This document shows positions 1 to 50,266 of a stretch of 64,000 bases of DNA, one piece after another. Where the stretch lies: the NCBI GenBank assembly GCA_000004985.1, contig GG738872.1. One strand, given 5' to 3'. Each line of letters begins with the position of its first letter. Position 1 is the first letter of the stretch. The position numbers and the translations under genes were made by a program. The notes beneath the pieces were generated by a model. That model did no database searches. It worked only from the letters and a program-made list of their open reading frames with translations, and had not been told where the DNA came from. This stretch comes from Naegleria gruberi. Taxonomy: Eukaryota.

Positions 1-1266
1 AACTCTCCACATTCCAGCAAGGTTCTACTTGGTATGGAAAGATCTCTACAGCTTGGGATGGCTGTGAGTGTGGAGGTACTCTCAAATTCGTCAGTTCCAA
101 GCTGTCCATTATTATTCTCTCCTGATACATACATTTTTCCAGATTCTCCAAGACAAATATAAAATTGCCAACCTGCTCCAATTGCTGTATTTTACGATTA
201 CATAAAAATGTTAATTAAACAGAAAGTTCAAATAATATATAATAAATGTGAAATTATTAATACTTACCACAAACTGGTTCATTAATGTTTAGCTTGGAAA
301 ATTCATGTGTAATGTATTTTCCTGTTCCCCAAACTTCATTATTTTCTAATTGTACAAGTGTGTGAAATCCTCCACAAACTACATTTCTAATTCTCTGTCC
401 AGAAAATGGAGTTGTGATTTGAGTAAATATTTCAGATCCACCATTATATGCCGTTGAAAGTTGCAAATCTCCATTTGTTCCACATCCAAATAATTGAGTT
501 TCTGTGGCAAGAACAGAGAATTGAGCACCAGTAGAAATACAATCGATTTGACGAGCATCAAAAGGTACGAGTGAAAGAGTTCCATATGAATCACTTCTAC
601 TTCCTATACCTAATTGTCCATTAGAATTCCATCCTATTAAAGTATTATACAATCATTCGGAAGGTCAAAGTTAATCAGCCACATGTTAACATTGTCAACA
701 ATAAATACATCATTTAGATCACCATTAAAACCATAATTTAGATTGATCTACTACTTACCTGTACCATAAATCTTTGATCCACAAATTACAAAACAATGGA
801 CTGCATTTGAATTGGTAACAAATCGATCAATTCTCAAAGAAGAGATATTATTTGGAGCATGCATTTTAAGATAGGTCTTATCAGCAGTCGTATTTTCCCA
901 TCCTGACCAATAAATGTGTCCATGTGCTGTCACAACATAGGTATTAATCTGTGTGCAAAATACATCAACAATCTTATCTCCATATTCAACAAATGATGGA
1001 ATTAAATAGAAGGATGTAAAAGTAGACTCCTTTCCATAGATTTGACCATGTTGATTATGTCCAATACCAAACAATCTTCCATCATTTAGCAATATCATGG
1101 TATGCTCTCTTCCACAAGCAACCTTCTTTACTCTTGACAAGTTCGAAACACTATCGGGTAAAATTGTGATCGGAGAGAAAGTGCTACTCTTATCAACTTT
1201 TTTACATGATTGACGATAATTGTTAGCTCCCGTTGATAATATGTATCCTGAGGCTGAATATCCCAT
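1..1266 (-). CDS. RCC1-like repeat protein, 5' part; the gene continues beyond the window start. Exons on the minus strand: 759..1266, 268..633 and 1..184.
   Basis: Repeated RCC1-type blades are visible (GWNSNGQLGIG, GIGHNQHGQ, ENNNGQLGT, CGGFHT). The start ATG at 1266 follows an AT-rich flank. The first intron (634..758) has a GTAAGT donor and an AATAG acceptor. The second intron (185..267) has a GTAAGT donor and a TACAG acceptor. The frame is preserved across both junctions. Confidence 0.6.
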
Positions 1267-1807
1267 TTTCTCTTTCTCTTGTCTTTATTCTCTCTATATA
1301 ATAATAATTATAATAAATTGATTTAAATTGTCTCTTGTTATTTACAATAAAATTGATCGGAATGTGTAGTGAGTATCAAAATATCATAAAATCCACAATG
1401 TTCTTCTATTCCTACTTTGTTATTGCTCTGTGATCACAAAAGTTTTGCTTTTTTCGCTGTTGATCAAAAACAAATAACAATTCCTATTGTCTGTGTCTTG
1501 TTATTTTTTTCTATTTTTAAACTTGGAGATGGAATTTTCCTAAGTTCGTATGATTACTACTTGGTATTGTTGAATTTAAATTATTAAATAACGTTAACTT
1601 TGAAAAATTAGTAATAATGTATGTTTAACATTCCGATAATTTAGTGTTTCATCTTTCTATCAGGAATATAGAAATCTTGCAATGGTGGCTCCAATCTTTT
1701 TCCGTGTTGCCTGATGATAAGTTTTATTTTAGATTGGATCCACTTTTAATTATTTAAAAAAAAATAGCTTAACACCTCAATCAGTCAATCTCAACCGTTT
1801 CTTGAAA
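1267..1807. promoter_or_regulatory. Divergent intergenic region shared by the RCC1-like gene (minus) and the UvrD-like helicase gene (plus).
   Basis: A 540-bp AT-rich non-coding stretch lies between two divergently oriented start codons (1266 minus, 1808 plus). No ORF or RNA gene was recognised in it. Confidence 0.3.
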
Positions 1808-3778
1808 ATGGAGAGTAAAATACCTCTTCACTACCTTCCCGAGGAAGAGAATGATCAAAGCTTAAGGTATATGAAAACAAGCTCTTCCACTTCTCCACTC
1901 GTCAAGAGGGAACGTGCCACTCCACTCAATGCTGAACACTCTAAAAAGGTCAAATTTATTGTACCCAATCTTTCTAATCCCGATCAATCAAAGGAAACTA
2001 ATGTGAGTATTAAAGTAGATGATGATGATGAGAATGATGTAATTGTCAATGTTGATATGGTTGATGGAAACATGTTGGATAAATATCAACAACGAGTGGT
2101 TGATGCTGATGATTCTTCACTGATGGTTTGTGCTTCACCTGGAAGTGGAAAGACCTTCACCATGACAATGAAAGCAAAGAGAATTATCAATATGGATAAA
2201 AGTGCACGTCTCTTGATTTTGACCTTCTCAAAGGATGCATCTGTTGAGGCAGATAAACGTCTACAAAAGTATGAAGTTCCACACAATTACAATGTCATGA
2301 CTATTCATGCATTTGCATTGAGTGTCTGCAGAATGTTTGGAACCAAAACACAAATTGCAAAGAGGGACTTTCTTTTGGAAAAGTTAAAGGAAAAGAAGAA
2401 GGAAATGAAATGGAAATTTGGAGAATTCAAAGAGGAACATGAATTATTGAAATGGCTGGAAAAGGAATATGGAAAGGGAAATCGTTCTGATTCTGGCTAT
2501 GGATCATTCTATAAGGAAGCATTTGAGTATTATGAGAGTATTATTAAGGATTTCCTTGTACTACCTTCATTGGTTTATGAAGCAGAAAAGATATTGAAGG
2601 AAAATGAAAGAGCTAGAGAATTCTATCATACTCATTTCACTCATATTTTGGTGGATGAGTTCCAGGACACCTCAGATCATCAGTACAATCTAATTAATTT
2701 AGTGAAAGGGCCAAATACTAAGATAATTGTCTTTGGTGATAAGAACCAGGCAATTTATGGTTTTATTGGATCCAATCCAAAGATTTTCGACAAGTTTCAA
2801 CACGATTATCCAAGTGCTAGGGTTTTGGAGCTGTTGATAAATTATAGAAGTAGTAGTGAGATTGTGGATATTGCTAACAAATTCTTCAATACGAAAGCTA
2901 AGGCTTTCAATACAGAGAGCAAGGGTGGAGCAATTCGAAAGGAGAGATGTTCTGGTGAAGGAGATGAGCTAGATTTTATAGTGAAAGAAATTTCCAAACT
3001 CTTGGAAGAAGGAGTACAACATAAGGATATTGCTGTACTATTGAGAAGACAACGACTTCGATTTGAGCTCATGAAGAGAATGAACGAAAAGAGAATCAAA
3101 ATTGCAGGAGAGACACTATTCCATTACTTGGCAGTTGCTCAAATGTTGAAAATTATTTATTGTAAATATGAAGATAAGGCTGATATGAAAGATTGCTTGC
3201 CAATTATTGTAGAACATTTGAAACCATTCTTTGCTGGAATAGGTGACAAGTTTTGCGCACGTTTCATATCAGGAAAACTAGGAAAGAAAACTATTGCGGG
3301 AAAGACATTTGAAGTTTTCATGGATAACATGAAAGAATTGAGGGAATTCTACGAAACCCATAAGGTGGTAAAGGATTTACTTGAAAAGATTTGTCAATTA
3401 TTTGATTTGGATAAGGTGGATATTTCTCTCAATTTCACAGATATTTTAGATCAAGAATTATCTGATGAGAATATTACACAATTCATAGAAATGATGTCAT
3501 TTGAGGAGAATACTAGTTTGGAATCAGACGGTATCCAAGTCACAACCATCCACAAGGCCAAAGGCAGAGAATGGGAATATGTATTTATTCCAGAAATACA
3601 AGAAGGTGTTATTCCACTAAAAATTAAAGCAACAAAGAATAAGGAAAAACCATCAGAAATTGTAGATATGAGCGAGGAGGAAAGAATATTCTATGTTGCC
3701 TTAACAAGAGCCAAGAAGAGCATTTACTTGTCGTGCAATACAGGAGCATTCTCTCACTTTCTCAATAGACTTAAATAA
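1808..3778 (+). CDS. UvrD/Rep/PcrA-family superfamily-1 DNA helicase, single exon, about 656 aa.
   Basis: All SF1 helicase motifs are in order: I ASPGSGKT (Walker A), Ia ILTFS, II VDEFQDTS, III GDKNQAIYGF, IV NYRSS, V TTIHKAKGREWEYVFI, VI FYVALTRAKKS. The track start at 1802 is a TTG; the first ATG is at 1808. There is an N-terminal acidic low-complexity leader. Stop is TAA at 3776-3778. Confidence 0.8.
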   Translation: MESKIPLHYLPEEENDQSLRYMKTSSSTSPLVKRERATPLNAEHSKKVKFIVPNLSNPDQSKETNVSIKVDDDDENDVIVNVDMVDGNMLDKYQQRVVDADDSSLMVCASPGSGKTFTMTMKAKRIINMDKSARLLILTFSKDASVEADKRLQKYEVPHNYNVMTIHAFALSVCRMFGTKTQIAKRDFLLEKLKEKKKEMKWKFGEFKEEHELLKWLEKEYGKGNRSDSGYGSFYKEAFEYYESIIKDFLVLPSLVYEAEKILKENERAREFYHTHFTHILVDEFQDTSDHQYNLINLVKGPNTKIIVFGDKNQAIYGFIGSNPKIFDKFQHDYPSARVLELLINYRSSSEIVDIANKFFNTKAKAFNTESKGGAIRKERCSGEGDELDFIVKEISKLLEEGVQHKDIAVLLRRQRLRFELMKRMNEKRIKIAGETLFHYLAVAQMLKIIYCKYEDKADMKDCLPIIVEHLKPFFAGIGDKFCARFISGKLGKKTIAGKTFEVFMDNMKELREFYETHKVVKDLLEKICQLFDLDKVDISLNFTDILDQELSDENITQFIEMMSFEENTSLESDGIQVTTIHKAKGREWEYVFIPEIQEGVIPLKIKATKNKEKPSEIVDMSEEERIFYVALTRAKKSIYLSCNTGAFSHFLNRLK

Positions 3779-3799: not shown

Positions 3800-5748
3800 T
3801 TACAAATATCTTTTAAATCTGCTCTTCATCGCACAACATCTTAGAGTGGTTTGGGATGGTAGTCCATAAATTATACTCTTAAATTCTTGAATGTTTCCTT
3901 TGAAAAGCAGTTTCAAATGAGAGAGAATATATTTGGCTCCAGTTTTCGTAAACTTACTGGAACAAACAGTGAGACTATTCAAATACTTCATAGTGGGATT
4001 CAAAACTATCCATCCAAGTGTGAAATCTGTCAATTTGTTATTCCTTCCAATATTTAGACGAGTTAATTGTATGAAATTACATGAGCAAATGTGTGAAATT
4101 CCAATATCTGTTATGCTGTAATTACAAACTCCCAAATATTTGAGGTTGAGAGTCTTATTTTCCAAAGATGCAAGACTCTTATCGCTAATATTGTTACCAT
4201 TCAAATTTAAATGCTCCAGTTTAGCAAAGAAAGGGCATTGTACCAGAAATATCAATCCATTATCAATATTATTTTTAGCTAAATTGAGAGAAGTGAGATT
4301 ATTCAAATTTTCACAATTCTCAAATGCAACCATATCCCTATCATATAATCTGCAACTAGAGAGACACAACTCTCTCAAAGAATACATACTCGGATTTCTT
4401 GTAATACAGCGAATATCAAAATGAGTTAAATTTAAATACAAAGTGTTCAAATTTTCCATATATTCACTCTGGAGCATTTCTATTGCATTTTCACCAGAAC
4501 TGAAATGAATTTTCCTCAAGCTTTTCATTTTCTTGTTTGGAATTAATTTTTGGTTGAATGTGGATTTCAGATTTGTGAGATTAGTCAAGTATGGACTTTC
4601 GAATAGAGGATTTAAATCTTTCACTTGTCCTAAATCTAGATCTGTCAAACAAGAAAGGCCTTCACAGTTGGCTATAGATTCACTAATATCTTCTGAATTG
4701 ACGTTAAGTGAGAGAGTCCTCAATTTTTTCAATTTAAACAATTTACAATCAAATAAAACCTTTGAATCTATTGCAATATCAAAAATAAAACCTATGTTTA
4801 AAAGGGTTAGATTCATTAAACAAGAGCTATGGAAAATATGTTTCATCCCAGGATAACCAATTCCTGATCCACTTATGTTCAAACTCTCTAAATTGGAAAG
4901 ATGTGGACAATTTGCTATCAATGCAGCATCGTTAAAATCTAAAGCACAACTTTTCAAATTTAGAATTTTCAGATTTCTAATTGTGGGATTAAGAATGGAT
5001 TCAAGACGTTCTGGTGAAGCCAAGCATCCTTGGAGGTTAAGTTCAGTTAAATTTTTGCAATTAATAGAATAATAGTAGATTTCTATTGGTGATTCATAAA
5101 TAAATCTATTTCTGAAATTGACTTTTCTTAAATTGGGTAACGCTCCAATCACAGCAAGTATGTAGTAATCAGTTTCATCATAGCAATTGGATTGAAAAGC
5201 TCTAATATCCAATTCTAATAGATGTTTTAAATTTTGAGAACATGATCGAATAGATTCTGAGTTTACATGGGTTCCTCGCAGATTTAAAACTTTCAAATTT
5301 CTAACTATTTCACTCTCCAATAGGACATCAATACTTCTCTCGTCAATGCATAATTATTCCTCAAATTTAAATGTTCCAAATTAGTCAAAGTCTTACATTG
5401 GGAAAGTATTATCAATTGCTCATCTCTTAATGCATTGAATGCCAGACTTAGTTGAGTAATATTTCTAGGAACATTCGAAGCATTGAAGAAACTTTCAAAA
5501 TACCTTGGATGTATCTTTTTAATGGAAAAATCAAGTTTCATCCGAAATAAACAACTGGCATAAAACCAAGTCTTGGAAATTAAACAATAACTTGACAATA
5601 TTTCCAAATGATCATTACAATATTCCATAATTTCTATCATCATATCTTGTACTAATGCATCACCAAAGTAATTGTTCCAAATAAAATTGTCTTTTATCGG
5701 AGTATCGTTAGAAGAAGGTTGAATCTTGTGTTGCCTTGGTGAAATCAT
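3800..5748 (-). CDS. F-box / leucine-rich-repeat protein (FBXL-like). Two ORFs (5305..5748 F-box plus first LRRs; 3800..5320 LRR array) are joined by a frame discontinuity near 5300..5320.
   Basis: The N-terminal ORF has an F-box-like helix-loop (IEIMEYCNDHLEILSSYCLISKTWF) followed by LRRs (LTNLEHLNLRNNYALT). The downstream ORF is about 500 aa of LxxLxLxxN/C LRR repeats. A real ATG is at 5748. The frames overlap by about 50 nt with no acceptable intron. It is either an indel in the draft sequence or a pseudogene. Confidence 0.55.
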
Positions 5749-37983: not shown

Positions 37984-39414
37984 TTAGTTATTGTACTCAT
38001 CGTAGAATACTGATTCTCTATTGACAAGATTTAAGGTAGCCTTTGGCTCTGTCGAAATCTCTTCCAGGCAGTAATCTTCCAATACATCTTCACTGAAATA
38101 GGAAAGAATTAATTCTTCACACAATTCATCACTTTCAAATTTTTGATCCCCAGAAATGAACAAATGTTGAACTGAGGAGTTTCTAAGGAAAGATGTGTTC
38201 TTGTTTTCCTGTAAATAGTCAATCATGTGTAATGGAGTGGTACTGTCAAGTACTAAATGGGTCAAGTGATTAACAGTTCTGAGATGTTGAAAACATTCAC
38301 CACGTATGCTCGACAAATCACCAGTAATATCCAAACATTCCAAATATTCGAGTTCTTTGAATATTCTTGAAATAATATTGTCTGAGAGGTGGGACTTTAC
38401 TTCCGTATTTGCTTCCGTATTTGCTGTTTGTTGTATGTCGATAATAAGAGTTTTGAGATTTTTCATTTTGAGAATATGCTCAATAATTTCTATATCCAAA
38501 TTGGTAGATTCCCTTATTTCTAGGTATTCAATTTGTTTAGGATAGAATGATAGGAACCAATTTCCAAAAATCAAATTGCATCTCTCCATGACAACTTTTT
38601 TCAATTTCTTTGATTTAAAAAGTGTTGATTTGATTGTTTTAGGATTTGAAGTATTGGTTGTAGAAAAATCACAATATGTTAATCCAGACAAGTAAACTTC
38701 TTCCAATTGTTGAAAATGAAAATCTGTTGGGACAACATATCCTTTTGCTGGACCGCACAGCATATTTTCTGAACTATTGACAGTTAATCTCTTTAGAGTT
38801 TTGTATGTTTTCTTTTTGATTGACTCTAATTCAAGTTCTAATATTCCTGTTTGTTTGAGTGTTAATTCTTCAATGACAGGGCACATTGATAATACTTTAG
38901 AAATAACATCTGCAGAGGACGAATCAACATGATTTGCTCTCAAAATTTTCAAGTTTGGCAATTTTCTAGTTTGCAATAAATACATGTAATCAGTTACCAT
39001 AGAATCATTACCATCAAAATCAATTATCAAATTATACCAATAATCACCAGTATTTTGGATAATCTTTTTGATTCTTTCCACATCTTTCACATCATACTTT
39101 AAATTAATATCAATCACTCTTTCAACACGTCTCTTCTTTCTTCCCAAATCAACAAATGGCCTCTTGAAATGACAATATGCAACATTTCTCCAAAGCAAAT
39201 AATCATTCGGATCTTGATCTTGATTCCCCTGATGATCATCAAATGGCAAAATAATTGAATGAAAATATTTACAAACTCTTGCCAAAGGAATCAACTCGAA
39301 TAATGTAACAAACGACAATATTGATGTAATATTCTCGATCGGGAGATTCAACAAATGTACATCATGAGATGATCTTTCTGATGATGAATTTTCCCCTTCA
39401 TGTGATGCCGCCAT
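37984..39414 (-). CDS. F-box / LRR protein, single exon, 476 aa.
   Basis: ATG at 39414. The F-box-like motif is LLNLPIENITSILSFVTLFELIPLARVCKYFHSII. It is followed by LRR-like repeats (LKILRANHVDSS..., LEYLECLDITGDLSSIRGECFQHLRTVNHLTHLVLD). Confidence 0.65.
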   Translation of the reverse strand: MAASHEGENSSSERSSHDVHLLNLPIENITSILSFVTLFELIPLARVCKYFHSIILPFDDHQGNQDQDPNDYLLWRNVAYCHFKRPFVDLGRKKRRVERVIDINLKYDVKDVERIKKIIQNTGDYWYNLIIDFDGNDSMVTDYMYLLQTRKLPNLKILRANHVDSSSADVISKVLSMCPVIEELTLKQTGILELELESIKKKTYKTLKRLTVNSSENMLCGPAKGYVVPTDFHFQQLEEVYLSGLTYCDFSTTNTSNPKTIKSTLFKSKKLKKVVMERCNLIFGNWFLSFYPKQIEYLEIRESTNLDIEIIEHILKMKNLKTLIIDIQQTANTEANTEVKSHLSDNIISRIFKELEYLECLDITGDLSSIRGECFQHLRTVNHLTHLVLDSTTPLHMIDYLQENKNTSFLRNSSVQHLFISGDQKFESDELCEELILSYFSEDVLEDYCLEEISTEPKATLNLVNRESVFYDEYNN

Positions 39415-41519: not shown

Positions 41520-42086
41520 TTCACATTGAATATTATGCTTAAATGCTCCGGCTTAAATACCACAATTTTGACAGCTCACACAAGTAAAATAGATTTTAAG
41601 ATTTAGTAAAACTTAAGTACAAGCTATAGCTTTGAAAATACATTTCAAAGGTCTGTATCTTTAGCGCTAAAGATCTTTCCCTTGTCCCTTCTTGCTCAGA
41701 CTTGTAGGAATCTAATTAAGGTGGGCTGTTAGTTGGTTGATTGGATTGTGAGTTTGATTTTGTTGTGATTGTTGAGACATTTTTGTTTGGGCAATTGATG
41801 TTGATAACATGTTCCACTACAACAGTTACACAACCAAAAGTAATTAAATATTCACCCAATCAAATAATTCCCTATTTTACAAATCTCTTCTGTTTCAATT
41901 TCCAATTGTTGCTTGGACACAACAATACAAATTTAATCACAAATTGTAAACTTGACACACGAACTGTATTCTTTTGCGTAAAAGGAACTTCCATCTCATT
42001 GAATAGTCATCGTCCTTTCATGTAAATTAGGCAGTGATCTACTATTCAAATTGCTAAAAAAAATAAAAAACAACATAACCATCAAG

Positions 42087-43991
42087 ATGGCGAAACTGTT
42101 GCAACAGCACAATCATTTCATTAGCTCATACGTGCTGATGGTCGCGATTTTATTTATTGTCGTTGTCTTGATGATGAGTGGCCAAGACATGAATCAGGTC
42201 GAGGCAAAAATACAACTTCAAACAACCTGTTGTTGTCCTGCACAATTTAATTCTACCATTGTATTGAGTGGTGGTGGTGAAAAAGATGTGCATGTTGTAA
42301 ATCCATCACACGATTTGATATTTAGCTATTCTACTTATGAAGCTCTTTCATTGCCAACTTATGAATGGAAATCCACTGATATTGATTTGAGTGGTTTGGC
42401 TTGTAATAGAAGTTTCCTTATAATTCCCAAGACTAAACTTATGCTATTTGAAAAACAATTAACTGTTCAATTGATCATTAGAGAAGGTTGCTCAAAGATC
42501 TCTAATCCTTCAATTTCCTTCACTTTGAATACACCTCCAAGTGTTGGAACCTTGTCAATTACTCCAAGCAGTGGTGTTGCTTTGGAAACTGTTTTCACCT
42601 TGACATGTAACGGTTCTTCAGTTTCTAATAATCCTCTTACCTACAGATTCTTTTACTTGGACGAATCCAATTCAGTATGGAAGCCACTAAACGAAAGAAA
42701 TCAAGATTCAACTCTCAGTTCCACTCTCCCTCTTGGATCCAATTCAAGCAGCACACAAGTTTTGAATATCAAGGTTATTGTTTATGATTCTGTACTTGTT
42801 TCCTCTGAAAAGCAAATGACTGTCATTGTCTACAAACCTTCCTCAATCAGCAATACTACACTGTCTGACATGTTACAAAAGGCCAGCTCCAAATCAGTTT
42901 CGTCCTCCTATATTTCATCCACTTTGGATGCAATTACATTTTTTATTGCATCATCCACCAATGTCCCTAGCAATATGAAACAAATTATGAGTGCAATCAA
43001 TGCAGTTGTCGTTTCCTATGTTGATACTCTTCAAAATATTGGTCAATTCACATCTGATAATGGTATTTCCACTGTTTCTGCCATCTCTTCAATCAGCTCA
43101 TGTGTGGAATATGTTCAAGATGCAGAAAGTACATCTTCTATCATTAAGAAATTGAGAAATTTGACAGAGGAAGCAGCAACTAGCAGTTCTTTCACCTTGG
43201 ATGATGATTATTTGTATCTCATACAAAAGACAGCAAACAAATTCCTTCTCCATGTAAAATCATCCAATGATTTAAAAGAAATTGAAAATATTTACCCATT
43301 AGTTGGTAAATCTTTCATGAAAAAGTCTGTTCCAGATATGCCAGCAATTACCTTTTCTAATACCATTCAAATATGTTATTGGAGAAAGGTATTGGTTTCA
43401 TCCTTGACAAGCATTGTTGGAGAATCCATTGATAATAACGGAAATAAGATTTCAATACAATCTGGATTAGCAACACACCCGTCAGTTTCACAATTGAACT
43501 ACATTACATTAGCTTTGAAAACTGAATCCCCTACCGACAGGTTAATCTTTGACTTTTCAATACTTGAATTTGATAATGTCTCATCAGATAAGAGCCTCAT
43601 ATCAGTATTCTTTGATACCACTTTTCCTTTCTACTATTGTTCCTATTGGGATAATGCATGGAATCAGACAGTGGCTGGAGGTGCTTGTAATATTAATTAC
43701 TCAGGAAAAAGTTCAATTGGCACCATCTCTGCATCAATTGAAAAGACTGGTCGATTTTCCATTATCCGTGATCCAGGAGAGGGAGGAGAGAGCTTTATCA
43801 GGAATAATTATGATTTGTTTGCCCTATTTGCATTGTTGATTATTCCAATTGTGTGCATAATTATTGTATTATTGGTGGCCATTTACTTGTTGAGAAAGAG
43901 AAAGATCAAAACCAACTTGGAAAATAATGATGTTGATATTGTGAATGTGCGTGAACCTAAACAAACACTTATCAGTAATCAACACTTTTAA
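42087..43991 (+). CDS. Single-pass type-I membrane protein with a REJ-like (polycystin / receptor-for-egg-jelly type) module, a Ser/Thr-rich stalk, a C-terminal TM helix and a short basic tail. It is a paralogue of the C-terminal part of the giant protein.
   Basis: ATG at 42087; [30 protein letters not shown] is a signal or anchor. The segment [27 protein letters not shown]...[59 protein letters not shown]...NIKVIVYD aligns residue-by-residue with the giant protein segment YAWSSSDLDLSSV...ADITFTVNAPPTVGILEVNPTTGVALKDEFQIKCGNGWYDPQVPLSYEFLYKLTTDSTW...DIKVVVYD. The C-terminus is [32 protein letters not shown]. Confidence 0.65.
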
Positions 43992-48670: not shown

Positions 48671-50266
48671 ATGGCTACTAATCTTTACGATCCTGTAATA
48701 GGAGACGAATTAAATTATAAAGGTGTGATGCTTCCACCACCATTCAGCGAAGCTAAAGTAAATTCAGAGGATGGCTTGTTGGAACAAAATCCACAAATCG
48801 ACCCAAAGAAACTTCATCCATTGACTCCAGAAGTTATTTCTCGTCAAGCTACTATTAACATTGGTACTATTGGACACGTCGCCCACGGTAAATCCACAGT
48901 CGTCAGAGCTATTTCTGGTGTTAAGACTATTCGTTTCAAGAATGAAATGGTTCGTAACATTACCATCAAGCTTGGTTATGCCAATGCCAAGATTTTCTTG
49001 TGTAGAGATCCTAAATGTCCAAGACCAGAATGTTATACATCACAAGGTTCTAACCATTGCGATCATTTCCCATGTGAAGTTGATGATTTCAAGGGTGAAT
49101 ATGAATTGGTTAGACACGTTTCTTTTGTCGATTGTCCAGGTCACGATATTCTCATGGCTACCATGTTGAACGGTGCCGCTGTCATGGATGCCGCTCTTTT
49201 ATTAATTGCTGGTAATGAACCATGTCCTCAACCACAAACATCAGAACATTTAGCTGCTGTAGAAATTATGAAATTGAAACATATTATTATTTTACAAAAT
49301 AAGATTGACTTGGTAAAGGAATCTGATGCTTTGAATCAATTTGATGAAATCAAACGTTTCGTTAAGGGAACTGTTGCTGATAATTCACCAATTATTCCAA
49401 TTTCTGCCCAATTGAAATACAATATTGACGTCGTTTGTGAACACATTGTGAAACGTATCCCAATTCCAATCCGTGATTTTACAAGCTCACCAAGATTGAT
49501 TGTCATTCGTAGTTTTGACGTTAACAAGCCAGGTGAAGCTGTTGAAAATCTTAAGGGTGGTGTTGCTGGTGGTTCTATTCTCAGAGGTGTTTTGAGGATT
49601 GGAGATGAAATTGAAGTTCGTCCAGGTATTGTGACTAAGGAAAAGGACGGTACTATCAAATGTAAACCAATTACAAGCAAAATTGTCAGTTTGTTCGCTG
49701 AAGAAAATGCTTTGCAATATGCTGTACCAGGTGGTTTGATTGGTGTTGGTACAAAGATTGATCCAACTCTTACTCGTGCCGATCGTTTGGTAGGTCAAGT
49801 TCTTGGTGAAGTTGGTAAATTACCAGAAGTTTACACTGAATTGGAAATTTCATACTTTTTACTTAGAAGACTTTTGGGTGTCAAGACTGACAATGAAAAG
49901 AAAGGAAAGATTCAAAAATTGCAAAAGGGTGAAGTCCTCATGATCAACATAGGTTCAACATCATCAGGTGGTAAAATCGTTGCTGTTAAGGCTGACTTGA
50001 CAAAGATTGTCCTTACTCAACCAGTTTGTACAGAAGTCGGTGAAAAGTTGGCTCTTTCCAGAAGAGTTGATAACCACTGGAGATTGATTGGTTGGGGTAG
50101 TATTGTCAGATTGAGCTCTGAACAAACAAAGCACGGTTTAGGTTTGGATATCAGTGGATCTGGTCTCAGAGAAAGTGGCTTGAATACTGAAGATATTAAC
50201 ACTGAAGTCGTCGAAGAAGAGCAAGCAGAAGATGAACAAGCCGACGAACAAGCTGATGAAGAGTAA
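48671..50266 (+). CDS. EIF2S3: Translation initiation factor eIF2 gamma subunit (EIF2S3/GCD11 family), single exon, 531 aa.
   Basis: The GTP-binding motifs are [14 protein letters not shown] and NKID. The zinc-ribbon Cys cluster is [25 protein letters not shown]. Domains II and III are typical of eIF2 gamma / aIF2 gamma. The C-terminus has an acidic tail ([17 protein letters not shown]). Stop is TAA at 50264-50266. Confidence 0.9.

What the first reader, a model, noticed from the sequence alone, without database searches (positions are those of the whole stretch)
1808..3778. Compact bacterial-type UvrD/Rep/PcrA helicase encoded as an intron-free gene among spliced eukaryotic genes (possible horizontal acquisition).
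- All seven SF1A helicase motifs are present in a 656-aa protein. This matches bacterial UvrD/Rep/PcrA in size and organisation, rather than the larger eukaryotic Srs2/Fbh1 relatives.
- There is no F-box or other eukaryotic accessory domain.
- Base composition and codon usage match the host, and it shares a divergent promoter with an intron-containing RCC1-like gene, so it is integrated rather than contamination.
- This pattern fits an old bacterial-to-eukaryote transfer, or an organellar-targeted repair helicase. The acidic N-terminal leader could be a targeting or regulatory add-on.
Basis: partly seen in the sequence, partly recalled or inferred. Interest (0 to 1): 0.5.

Follow-up and report, generated by a model that had tools for sequence, protein, structure and literature searches.

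The report
Naegleria UvrD/Srs2-like DNA helicase paralog
This is an intact, host-integrated gene of the amoeba Naegleria gruberi for a compact UvrD/PcrA/Srs2-type DNA helicase, one copy of a small fast-evolving Naegleria-only family; it is ordinary in kind, and whether the family came from bacteria or is a shrunken eukaryotic Srs2 could not be settled.

Summary
Window 1808-3778 (+) is an uninterrupted 656-aa ORF with the UvrD-helicase and UvrD_C domains, all ATPase residues, and a predicted four-subdomain UvrD/PcrA fold. Residues 1-85 form a disordered tail.

The window is Naegleria gruberi nuclear DNA. Codon usage matches the neighbours. One flank is an RCC1 gene with a GTAAGT...AG intron; the other is an LRR gene.

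- The protein is not an equivalog of PcrA, UvrD or Rep (155-186 bits against cut-offs of 911-1144).
- It lacks the bacterial C-terminal Tudor domain.
- Its only close relatives are a second N. gruberi gene (NAEGRDRAFT_52403, 36% identity) and N. lovaniensis C9374_012276 (32%). Everything else is at or below about 28%.

NJ and ML placement do not resolve where this Naegleria clade attaches. It goes to an AT-rich, long-branch bacterial pair (RELL 0.42). Once that pair is removed, it goes to the plant SRS2 + Willaertia clade (RELL 0.52).

Lack of introns is uninformative here. Recent transfer and contamination are rejected; a viral origin and organellar targeting are unsupported. Most likely it is a nuclear 3'-5' repair/anti-recombination helicase. 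It is a new member of a known kind, of low-to-moderate interest.

The parts
1808..3778 (+). Complete single-exon CDS of a 656-aa UvrD/PcrA/Srs2-like SF1A helicase (stop TAA at 3776-3778)
   Evidence: ORF list; Pfam UvrD-helicase 1e-41 and UvrD_C 2e-34; PDB hits to UvrD, Rep and PcrA; AF2 model and Foldseek
1808..2062 (+). N-terminal tail, aa 1-85. It is predicted to be disordered and is rich in S/T, D/E and K/R, with an acidic run DDDDEND at aa 71-77 (nt 2018-2038).
   Evidence: pLDDT below 50 for residues 1-58 and 60-85; composition 16 D/E, 11 K/R, 14 S/T
1904..1954 (+). Bipartite-NLS-like element KR-ERATPLNAEHS-KKVK (aa 33-49). A nuclear-import role is inferred, not tested.
   Evidence: Sequence located. 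The match to the classical KR-x10-12-K(K/R)x(K/R) pattern rests on established knowledge; no predictor was run.
2075..2155 (+). Q motif (LDKYQQRV, aa 90-97) and motif I / Walker A (ASPGSGKT, aa 109-116)
   Evidence: Alignment columns Q94, G112, G114, K115 and T116 are invariant in 91 sequences; coordinates
2651..2674 (+). Motif II / Walker B, VDEFQDTS (aa 282-289). The S at 289 is shared with plant SRS2; 280 of 338 relatives have N.
2729..2773 (+). Motif III, VFGDKNQAIYGFIGS (aa 308-322). Q314 is kept. The ssDNA-contacting W-R pair of PcrA/UvrD is replaced by F-I; all three Naegleria members lack the Arg.
   Evidence: Column counts: R in 298 of 338, I in 9 of 338. The role of PcrA W259/R260 comes from established knowledge.
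2840..2851 (+). Motif IV, NYRS (aa 345-348; R347 invariant)
3236..3250 (+). GIGDK (aa 477-481), the 'GIG' duplex-DNA-contact motif of subdomain 2B. It shows that a 2B subdomain is retained.
   Evidence: Alignment with E. coli UvrD 'RGIGD'; helical 2B region aa 438-568 in the model
3542..3715 (+). Motif V (TTIHKAKGREWEYVFIPE, aa 579-596) and motif VI (RIFYVALTRAK, aa 626-636; R634 is the arginine finger). The protein ends 20 residues after motif VI, with no Tudor or Srs2-type C-terminal extension.
1267..1807 (.). 541-bp AT-rich intergenic region between the divergently transcribed RCC1-like gene and the helicase gene (presumed bidirectional promoter). It holds no upstream helicase exon and no PIP-box coding potential.
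   Evidence: Sequence; three-frame translation
257..1266 (-). Neighbouring RCC1-repeat gene (start ATG at 1266-1264) with a canonical spliceosomal intron, GTAAGT...AG, at about 756-636
   Evidence: Pfam RCC1/RCC1_2; splice sites read; start codon
3800..5748 (-). Convergent leucine-rich-repeat gene. Its stop codon lies 21 bp from the helicase stop codon.
   Evidence: Pfam LRR_4 2e-16; sequence

Best explanation
The gene encodes a functional, nuclear, ATP-driven SF1A DNA helicase/translocase of Naegleria gruberi.

Family and history:
- It belongs to a small, rapidly diverging, Naegleria-restricted family of compact UvrD/PcrA/Srs2-like proteins.
- It is a divergent paralog of NAEGRDRAFT_52403. 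The duplication probably happened in the N. gruberi lineage, and the copy now sits at a new genomic location.

Inferred mechanism:
- The 1A/2A RecA-like core (motifs Q, I-VI) hydrolyses ATP and inchworms 3'-to-5' along single-stranded DNA.
- The retained 1B/2B subdomains, including the GIG motif, engage the duplex.
- The disordered N-terminal tail supplies nuclear import (KR-x11-KKVK) and partner binding.
- In the cell it most likely acts as UvrD and Srs2 do, unwinding or stripping proteins such as Rad51 from repair and recombination intermediates.
- Its two relatives carry a PIP-type PCNA-binding box in their tails (QKTVVEFF; HKTIDSFFRKKK). This copy has lost it, so it is probably recruited differently or is sub- or neo-functionalised.

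What is shown and what is inferred:
- Shown: domain content, motif integrity, predicted fold, host integration, family membership.
- Inferred: polarity, DNA substrate, nuclear location, cellular role.
- The ultimate origin of the family is left open. It is either an old bacterial transfer that predates the N. gruberi / N. lovaniensis split, or a truncated, fast-evolving eukaryotic SRS2.
For: Protein identity and integrity:
- Domains and motifs.
- All catalytic residues are kept: Q94, K115, D283/E284, Q314, R347, R413, R634.
- AF2 model has pTM 0.76 and best matches apo UvrD and PcrA at TM about 0.7.
- The tail, aa 1-85, is disordered.

Host identity and integration:
- eIF2-gamma in the same window is 100% identical to the N. 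gruberi protein.
- Codon usage correlates at r = 0.87 with the other window genes.
- Flanking genes are eukaryotic, one with a canonical intron.
- No terminal or direct repeats of a mobile element flank the gene.

Family membership:
- An exhaustive phmmer search of 1.8 billion representatives gives only two strong hits: 2e-96 (the N. gruberi paralog) and 4e-80 (N. lovaniensis). The next hit is 1e-46.
- Pairwise identities are 36.5, 32.2 and 33.5%.
- The Naegleria clade has 100% bootstrap support.
- The N. lovaniensis gene is intronless and sits in a different gene neighbourhood.
- PIP-type motifs in the two relatives are visible in the alignment and in contig L166.
Against: - No expression, localisation or biochemical data were available.
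- The protein itself could not be found in any protein collection.
- The ssDNA-contacting Arg of motif III is replaced by I/L in all three family members. It is R in 298 of 338 relatives, so DNA-binding properties may differ from those of UvrD and PcrA.
- The NLS and PIP assignments are pattern matches only.
- About 35% identity between the paralogs could also reflect relaxed constraint rather than specialisation.
Confidence: 0.7

Rival explanations
1. Origin rival A: ancient bacterium-to-Naegleria transfer. A compact (~600-660 aa), Tudor-less PcrA-like helicase entered an ancestor of Naegleria. It then acquired an N-terminal nuclear/PCNA-binding tail and duplicated.
For: - The top non-Naegleria hits by sequence are bacterial or MAG proteins of 600-720 aa at 27-33% identity.
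- NJ places the clade next to P0110/P0410. Their contigs carry bacterial genes: PilM, RuvAB, SSB, RusA.
- ML placement gives LWR 0.76 and RELL 0.42 for that stem, and about 0.8 for all bacterial edges together.
- The overall size and the missing C-terminal extension resemble the short bacterial forms.
- No equally close homolog turned up in Willaertia or Acrasis, although their eIF2-gamma proteins are in the same protein collection and Willaertia's UvrD-like protein P0354 is in the library searched.
- HGT is reported to be frequent in Heterolobosea (PMC11589745).
Against: - Support is weak. NJ bootstrap is 14%. The KH test against the SRS2 stem gives delta lnL 10.0 +/- 12.2, z = 0.8.
- P0110/P0410 sit on the longest backbone branch (0.80). 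They are AT-rich like Naegleria (contig 33.5% GC, FYMINK 0.41 against 0.35-0.37), so long-branch or compositional attraction is plausible.
- Without them the best placement is the eukaryotic SRS2 clade.
- Bacterial sequences vastly outnumber eukaryotic ones in the libraries, so 'top hits are bacterial' is expected under either history.
Confidence: 0.4
2. Origin rival B: vertical descent. The family is Naegleria's highly diverged, C-terminally truncated version of eukaryotic SRS2. The PCNA-binding element has moved to the N-terminus, and the gene was then duplicated in N. gruberi.
For: - A profile of the three Naegleria proteins ranks plant SRS2 proteins 4th and 14th of 1,540 hits: 1.4e-61 and 1.6e-57, against 1e-63 for the best hit.
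- Willaertia magna, from another heterolobosean genus, has a 948-aa protein (P0354) that clusters with plant SRS2 in the ML-optimised backbone.
- Rare-residue sharing is reciprocal.
  - The plant SRS2 sequences share 6 of 7 selected Naegleria signature residues: DTS in motif II, loss of the motif III Arg, RR after motif IV, EW in motif V, PL in Va.
  - N. gruberi proteins rank 2nd-7th of 336 for plant-SRS2-specific rare residues, z = 2.4-3.9.
- After the long-branch bacterial pair is removed, the best ML placement is the SRS2 stem: RELL 0.36, or 0.52 for all SRS2-clade edges.
- Accepted Srs2 orthologs of plants and yeasts share only 22-24% identity (PMC2790887), so about 26% identity to plant SRS2 does not exclude membership.
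- PIP-type boxes in the two relatives fit a PCNA-associated, Srs2-like role.
Against: - With all taxa included, the SRS2-clade edges get only RELL 0.13.
- BLAST ranks of Naegleria proteins against P0354 or plant SRS2 are near the bottom of the set.
- The signature positions were partly chosen post hoc. The unbiased version puts several short proteins, where named from Actinomycetota MAGs, equally high.
- The third member, N. lovaniensis, shows little of the signal (rank 50-72).
- The Srs2 C-terminal Rad51/PCNA/SUMO-binding region is absent.
- Only two bona fide SRS2 sequences were available.
Confidence: 0.4
3. Organelle-targeted (mitochondrial) repair helicase, analogous to yeast Hmi1.
For: UvrD-family helicases do serve mitochondria in fungi (established knowledge). 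The protein has a non-conserved terminal extension.
Against: - The first 30 residues hold 5 acidic and 3 basic residues, with an EEEND run at positions 12-16. Matrix presequences are essentially free of acidic residues (established knowledge).
- The tail contains a bipartite-NLS-like element.
- The two relatives carry PIP-type boxes, which point to nuclear replication and repair.
Confidence: 0.05
4. Derived from a virus or a defence/mobile element, for example a giant-virus helicase or a Gabija GajB-like helicase.
For: - PADLOC GajB profiles give the highest profile scores: 219 bits, with full-length alignment to 590-625-position models.
- The family evolves fast.
- Giant viruses of amoebae encode UvrD-like helicases.
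Against: - GajB profiles are generic for short UvrD-like helicases. No GajA/OLD-nuclease partner is present; the neighbours are RCC1 and LRR genes.
- IMG/VR relatives are about 25% identical in most cases (30% at most), no closer than cellular ones.
- Giant-virus proteins are only 13-19% identical in structure-based alignment.
- No TIRs, LTRs or other element boundaries flank the gene.
Confidence: 0.05
5. Bacterial contamination or a chimeric contig.
For: None beyond the bacterial look of the top database hits.
Against: - Host-like GC, GC3 and codon usage.
- Eukaryotic genes within 541 bp on one side and 21 bp on the other, one with a spliceosomal intron.
- Homologs in a second N. gruberi locus and in N. 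lovaniensis, the latter embedded among eukaryotic genes.
- No bacterial sequence above about 28% identity.
Confidence: 0.01

Closest known systems
NAEGRDRAFT_52403 (XP_002672287 / UniProt D2VUP5, 'DNA 3'-5' helicase', N. gruberi) and C9374_012276 (XP_044542461, N. lovaniensis)
   Same: - Same family: full-length collinear helicase core, E 2e-96 and 4e-80.
- Shared family-specific features: TFS[KR] in motif Ia, DEFQDTS, F-[IL]-G in motif III, GIG[DE]K, a short loop after motif VI, no C-terminal extension, and a disordered N-terminal tail.
   Different: - Only 36% and 32% identical.
- The window protein has the shortest tail (85 aa against about 110 and 180).
- It lacks the PIP-type box ([QH]KT[VI]xxFF) and the PLxxxFQKxK motif of the other two.
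- Its genomic neighbourhood differs from that of the N. lovaniensis gene.
Bacterial UvrD / PcrA / Rep (SF1A helicases; PDB 3lfu, 2is4, 1pjr, 1uaa)
   Same: - Same four-subdomain fold (TM about 0.7).
- Same motif set and catalytic residues.
- GIG motif in 2B.
- Presumably the same 3'-5' inchworm translocation.
   Different: - 20-22% identity in structure-based alignment to the solved UvrD, PcrA and Rep structures.
- Far below the NCBIfam equivalog cut-offs.
- No C-terminal Tudor/RNAP-binding domain.
- A shorter 1B insert and post-2B region.
- The motif III Arg is replaced.
- An N-terminal disordered tail is present.
Eukaryotic Srs2 / plant SRS2 (At4g25120 family), and the Willaertia magna protein ABK040_000607
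   Same: - UvrD-like core.
- Several rare motif residues shared with plant SRS2: DTS, loss of the motif III Arg, RR, EW, PL.
- ML placement on the SRS2 stem once the long-branch bacteria are removed.
- PCNA-binding motifs in the family fit an Srs2-like role at forks.
   Different: - About half the length.
- No C-terminal Rad51/PCNA/SUMO-interaction region; the extension is N-terminal instead.
- Phylogenetic affinity is not significant.
Fbh1 (F-box DNA helicase)
   Same: A UvrD-family core in a eukaryote. Functionally it is related to Srs2 as an anti-recombinase (PMC4148199).
   Different: No F-box was detected by Pfam, and the protein is much shorter.
Gabija GajB and other short bacterial UvrD-like helicases
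   Same: Similar length, and full-length matches to PADLOC GajB profiles at up to 219 bits. PDB GajB hits at about 1e-11.
   Different: No GajA partner, a eukaryotic nuclear context, and profiles that are generic rather than specific.

Membership tests
UvrD-like SF1A helicase superfamily (Pfam PF00580 + PF13361) | N-terminal UvrD-helicase domain and UvrD_C domain scoring above the Pfam gathering thresholds | tested here: met
   143.8 bits against cut-off 23, and 119.7 bits against cut-off 25.6
UvrD-like SF1A helicase superfamily (Pfam PF00580 + PF13361) | Intact motifs Q, I, Ia, II, III, IV, V and VI with their catalytic Lys, Asp-Glu, Gln and Arg residues | tested here: met
   Q94, K115, D283, E284, Q314, R347 and R634 lie in columns invariant across 91 sequences. 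Only the non-catalytic Arg of motif III is replaced.
UvrD-like SF1A helicase superfamily (Pfam PF00580 + PF13361) | Four-subdomain 1A/1B/2A/2B architecture | tested here: met
   AF2 model against 3lfu and 1pjr, TM 0.68-0.71; GIG motif in 2B
Bacterial PcrA / UvrD / Rep orthologs (NCBIfam TIGR01073, TIGR01075, TIGR01074) | Score above the curated equivalog cut-off | tested here: not met
   186 against 911 (pcrA), 159 against 1144 (uvrD), 155.5 against 951 (rep)
Bacterial PcrA / UvrD / Rep orthologs (NCBIfam TIGR01073, TIGR01075, TIGR01074) | C-terminal Tudor-like RNAP-binding domain (PF21196) in PcrA/UvrD | tested here: not met
   No Pfam hit. The protein ends 20 residues after motif VI, whereas E. 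coli UvrD and several bacterial hits continue for 60 residues or more.
Srs2 (eukaryotic anti-recombinase) | Phylogenetic grouping of the helicase core with bona fide Srs2/SRS2 | tested here: inconclusive
   RELL 0.13 with all taxa and 0.52 after removing the long-branch pair. KH delta lnL 10.0 +/- 12.2. Only two SRS2 references were available.
Srs2 (eukaryotic anti-recombinase) | C-terminal regulatory region with Rad51-binding, PIP-like and SUMO-interaction motifs | tested here: not met
   No C-terminal extension at all. The two relatives have an N-terminal PIP-type box instead, and the window protein has none.
Fbh1 | N-terminal F-box preceding the UvrD-like core | tested here: not met
   No F-box or F-box-like hit at E <= 0.01. 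As a positive control, the same Pfam library did detect an F-box in another window protein, at 37984-39414.
Gabija GajB | Encoded next to a GajA (OLD-family ATPase-nuclease) partner | tested here: not met
   The neighbours are RCC1 and LRR genes. The N. lovaniensis homolog sits next to Metallophos and E1 genes.
Gabija GajB | Match to GajB profile HMMs | tested here: met
   PDLC00132, 219 bits; PDLC00117 aligns full-length. This is a generic property of short UvrD-like helicases.
Mitochondrial UvrD-family helicase (Hmi1-like) | Mitochondrial targeting signal or mitochondrial localisation | not testable with these tools
   No targeting predictor was available. The N-terminal composition (5 D/E in the first 30 residues) argues against a presequence.
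Horizontally transferred gene of bacterial origin | Nested within a bacterial clade with strong support, to the exclusion of other eukaryotes | tested here: inconclusive
   NJ 14%. ML RELL 0.42 on an LBA-prone branch, and the result reverses when that branch is removed.

The most novel reading that the evidence does not exclude
Naegleria has replaced the canonical long Srs2 with a compact, fast-evolving helicase family. The PCNA-binding PIP box of this family sits at the N-terminus instead of the C-terminus. The family arose either by radical remodelling of SRS2 or by capture of a bacterial PcrA-like gene. N. gruberi then spun off a PIP-less copy (this gene) with a new role, independent of PCNA recruitment.
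Probability: 0.25. Interest if true: 0.45.

Novelty: new member of a known kind. Interest (0 to 1): 0.25.

Why it matters
UvrD-family helicases (Srs2, Fbh1) restrain recombination at eukaryotic replication forks. Their distribution and origins outside fungi, plants and animals are poorly mapped.

This locus shows that Naegleria carries at least two very divergent compact members. Two of the three known family proteins appear to have an N-terminal PIP box. That would be a different architectural solution to PCNA recruitment from the one Srs2 uses.

If a well-sampled phylogeny showed a bacterial origin, it would be a case of an information-processing gene being transferred and wired into the eukaryotic replisome. 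If it showed SRS2 ancestry, it would document extreme remodelling of a conserved repair factor.

As it stands, this is a routine, already partly catalogued gene family rather than a surprise. The analysis also illustrates that 'intronless plus bacterial top hits' is not evidence of HGT in an intron-poor, AT-rich protist.

Tried and rejected
1. Self-identification. The window protein gave no exact or near-exact hit in the word-indexed search, the exact-sequence index or the exhaustive representative library. Attempts to reach the N. gruberi annotation through neighbouring ORFs or known N. gruberi proteins all returned 'not on record'. So it cannot be said whether the gene is annotated in the reference.
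2. The word-indexed homolog search missed the two true family members even when they were in the query alignment. They were found only by the exhaustive search.
3. The viral-contig scan, the metagenome scan and the BFVD fold search found nothing closer than about 27% identity over the full-length match (isolated best-scoring segments reach 29-30%). A viral origin and additional environmental family members are therefore not supported.
4. The AFDB fold library was unavailable.
5. I looked for an upstream exon or PIP box for the window gene in 1267-1807. None is present, only a short uORF, MVAPIFFRVA.
6. I first read the difference between P0241 and P0391 as a 5' intron in the paralog. Contig L166 shows it is an indel or frameshift between strains or assemblies, not an intron, so that reading was withdrawn.
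7. 'TFS' in motif Ia together with the short loop after motif VI looked like a possible Naegleria-Willaertia synapomorphy. Four non-Naegleria sequences share both features against about three expected by chance, so it is not informative.
8. P0084 and P0055 were considered as eukaryotic references. P0084 is a GC-rich bacterial PHP-domain fusion. P0055, the Chlamydoabsidia protein, is 39% identical to Chloroflexi-type PcrA. Neither is an Srs2.
9. A repeat scan for transposon boundaries was negative.
10. Literature searches for Naegleria with UvrD or with Srs2 found nothing specific.


Full report
**1. What is there**

Window 1808-3778 (+) is an uninterrupted ORF of 656 codons from the first ATG. 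A TTG two codons upstream is the mechanical ORF start.

- Pfam assigns UvrD-helicase (aa 91-335, E 1e-41), UvrD_C (E 2e-34) and AAA_19. It detects no F-box or any other accessory domain.
- By sequence the closest solved structures are E. coli UvrD (2e-30), D. radiodurans UvrD, Rep and PcrA.
- All SF1A motifs are present and were located to the nucleotide.
- The catalytic residues Q94, K115, D283/E284, Q314, R347, R413 and R634 fall in columns that are invariant across a 91-sequence alignment.
- An AlphaFold2 model built on that alignment has mean pLDDT 76.6 and pTM 0.76. Residues 1-85 are disordered, followed by a well-predicted core.
- Foldseek matches the model to apo UvrD 3lfu (TM 0.69/0.71) and apo PcrA 1pjr (0.68/0.71).
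- The 'GIG' duplex-contact motif of subdomain 2B is retained (GIGDK, aa 477-481).

**2. Whose DNA it is**

- The eIF2-gamma ORF at 48671-50266 is 100% identical to the Naegleria gruberi protein, 88% to N. lovaniensis and 87% to Willaertia.
- Other ORFs in the window are plainly eukaryotic: G-alpha, RIO kinase, JmjC, an F-box protein, P450, M16 peptidase, and a 4,884-aa EGF/REJ protein.
- The helicase gene has GC 35.4% and GC3 33%. Its RSCU correlates at r = 0.87 with the rest of the window, inside the 0.74-0.97 range of the other genes.
- Upstream, 541 bp away and divergently oriented, is an RCC1-repeat gene with a canonical GTAAGT...AG intron.
- Downstream, an LRR gene converges, with 21 bp between the stop codons.
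- No terminal or direct repeats suggest a mobile element.

Contamination or chimerism is effectively excluded.

**3. Intron absence is not a signal here**

Eighteen ORFs of at least 250 aa run uninterrupted in this window, including core eukaryotic genes. The N. lovaniensis homolog is also single-exon.

**4. The family**

- The word-indexed search returned only hits at about 27% identity.
- The exhaustive phmmer search of 1.84 billion representatives found just two strong relatives, at 2e-96 and 4e-80. The next hit is 1e-46.
- These two are N. gruberi NAEGRDRAFT_52403 (XP_002672287, UniProt D2VUP5, 705 aa) and N. lovaniensis C9374_012276 (774 aa).
- Pairwise identities are 36.5% (window against the N. 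gruberi paralog), 32.2% (window against N. lovaniensis) and 33.5% (paralog against N. lovaniensis). The two N. gruberi genes are slightly closer to each other, and the ML stem joining them is 0.16.
- The N. lovaniensis gene lies among aldehyde dehydrogenase, metallophosphatase, ubiquitin-E1 and kinesin genes, so it is not syntenic with this window.
- eIF2-gamma is 88% identical between the same two species. Against that, the family is evolving very fast.
- Nothing closer was found in IMG/VR, in JGI metagenomes or among viral structure models (giant-virus helicases 13-19% identical).

**5. How 'bacterial' it is**

- Against NCBI's equivalog models the protein scores 186 bits (PcrA, cut-off 911), 159 (UvrD, 1144) and 155 (Rep, 951). 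It is not an ortholog of any of them.
- A focused alignment shows a shortened 1B insert and post-2B region.
- It also shows a short loop after motif VI and no C-terminal extension. The Tudor-like domain found in the ~700-750-aa hits that carry PF21196 is therefore missing.
- The Srs2-type C-terminal regulatory region is missing too.
- In all three Naegleria proteins the motif III W-R pair is F-[I/L]. The Arg is present in 298 of 338 relatives.
- PADLOC GajB profiles give the best profile scores (219 bits), but no GajA partner is nearby and these profiles are generic for short UvrD-like helicases.

**6. Origin: transfer or descent**

I built a 338-sequence alignment (565 columns). It contained the search hits plus E. 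coli UvrD and Rep taken from MG1655.

NJ with 100 bootstraps:
- The Naegleria clade is recovered at 100%.
- Its sister (P0110/P0410) has only 14% support, and deeper nodes have 0%.
- P0110/P0410 lie on contigs with PilM, RuvAB, SSB and RusA, so they are bacterial.

ML placement (65-taxon backbone, 492 sites, Gonnet-derived reversible matrix with four gamma categories, alpha about 1.0, branch lengths ML-optimised):
- The best edge is the P0110/P0410 stem, with LWR 0.76.
- RELL bootstrapping gives only 0.42 for that edge and 0.13 for edges of the clade (plant SRS2 P0403/P0406 + Willaertia magna P0354 + P0080).
- A KH comparison of the best placement with the SRS2 stem gives delta lnL 10.0 +/- 12.2.

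Sensitivity to the long branch:
- The P0110/P0410 stem is the longest branch of the backbone (0.80).
- Those proteins are as AT-biased as Naegleria's (contig 33.5% GC, FYMINK 0.41).
- When they are removed and the backbone re-optimised, the best placement becomes the SRS2 stem. RELL is 0.36, or 0.52 for all SRS2-clade edges.

Other evidence pointing the same way:
- A profile of the three Naegleria proteins ranks plant SRS2 4th and 14th of 1,540 hits.
- The plant SRS2 sequences share 6 of 7 Naegleria signature residues in motifs II, III, IV-b, V and Va. These positions were chosen post hoc.
- In the reciprocal, unbiased test the N. gruberi proteins rank 2nd-7th of 336 for plant-SRS2-specific rare residues (z = 2.4-3.9). 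The N. lovaniensis protein does not.

Evidence against it:
- BLAST ranks show no special affinity.
- Several short proteins, where named from Actinomycetota MAGs, share as many rare residues.

Blanck et al. (PMC2790887) report only 22-24% identity between plant and yeast SRS2, so the identity level cannot decide the question.

My reading is that the origin is unresolved, with roughly equal weight on an ancient bacterial transfer and on a remodelled SRS2. A recent transfer is excluded.

**7. The tail and probable cellular role**

- Residues 1-85 are disordered. They hold 16 D/E, 11 K/R and 14 S/T residues, with KR-x11-KKVK at aa 33-49 and DDDDEND at aa 71-77.
- The acidic start argues against a mitochondrial presequence.
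- The KR/KKVK pattern fits a classical bipartite NLS. This is a pattern match from established knowledge, not a prediction run.
- The two relatives carry, at aligned positions in their tails, QKTVVEFF (N. gruberi paralog) and HKTIDSFFRKKK (N. lovaniensis). These fit the PIP-box consensus Qxx[ILMV]xx[FY][FY] seen at the N-termini of UNG2, MSH6 and DNA ligase I (established knowledge).
- The PIP-coding sequence is also present on an independent metagenome contig (L166).
- The window protein lacks this box, and no upstream exon could supply it.

I therefore infer the following.
- The family consists of nuclear helicases, two of whose three known members carry a PCNA-binding (PIP-type) box.
- They act like UvrD and Srs2, translocating 3'-5' on ssDNA to unwind or clear repair and recombination intermediates.
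- This copy is a PIP-less, sub- or neo-functionalised paralog.

None of this is experimentally shown.

**8. Verdict**

- The helicase identity and host integration are right.
- The 'bacterial-type, horizontally acquired or organellar' reading is not established.
- The thing itself is a new, divergent member of a known kind. Its sister gene is already catalogued as a DNA 3'-5' helicase.
- I could not determine whether this particular gene is annotated.
- Interest is low to moderate.

Noticed in passing
Proteins P0391 (N. gruberi NAEGRDRAFT_52403) and P0242 (N. lovaniensis C9374_012276); locus L166:83-240: Both relatives of the window protein have a PIP-box-like motif in their disordered N-terminal tails: KKQKTVVEFFKP and NHKTIDSFFRKKK. 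Both also share a second motif, [LG]PL[HD]xxFQKxK. The window protein keeps only a degenerate 'IPLHYL' at residues 5-10.
   Followed up: partly
Locus L166 (ENA metagenome contig ERR1078381 k127_332738), nt 83-260: This is a 2.7-kb environmental contig 99% identical to the N. gruberi paralog. It lacks the 23-codon segment STSSSPSQEQEQNPDDTQSQIEV of the reference model. As a result the PIP-box-encoding 5' part is out of frame with the helicase. The cause is either a strain indel or an assembly error.
   Followed up: partly
window:1683-1715 (+): A short upstream ORF, ATG GTG GCT CCA ATC TTT TTC CGT GTT GCC TGA (MVAPIFFRVA*), sits in the helicase 5' region, about 95 nt before the start codon.
   Followed up: no
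window:14500-29154 (-): An uninterrupted 4,884-codon ORF encodes a giant protein with EGF/teneurin-type repeats and a REJ domain. A second REJ-domain ORF lies at 42051-43991 (+).
   Followed up: partly
window:3800-5748 (-): The LRR gene next to the helicase is split into two overlapping ORFs in different frames (3800-5320 and 5305-5748). This implies a short intron or a frameshift near 5305-5320.
   Followed up: no
Protein P0354 (Willaertia magna ABK040_000607, 948 aa): This heterolobosean UvrD-like protein has a long N/S/T/P-rich C-terminal tail. It clusters with plant SRS2 in the ML-optimised backbone. Its motif III reads VLDDDQ instead of VGDDDQ.
   Followed up: partly
Loci L083/L084 (contigs carrying P0110): The bacterial helicase that attracts the Naegleria clade lies in an AT-rich (33.5% GC) genome. 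Its neighbours are a 5'-3' exonuclease, SSB, a NERD-domain protein, RuvAB and RusA, a compact DNA-repair neighbourhood.
   Followed up: no
window:6646-6984 (+): A 112-aa ORF begins MGGNQS..., an N-myristoylation-type start. No protein with exactly this sequence is on record, but the N. gruberi assembly is not covered by that index.
   Followed up: no
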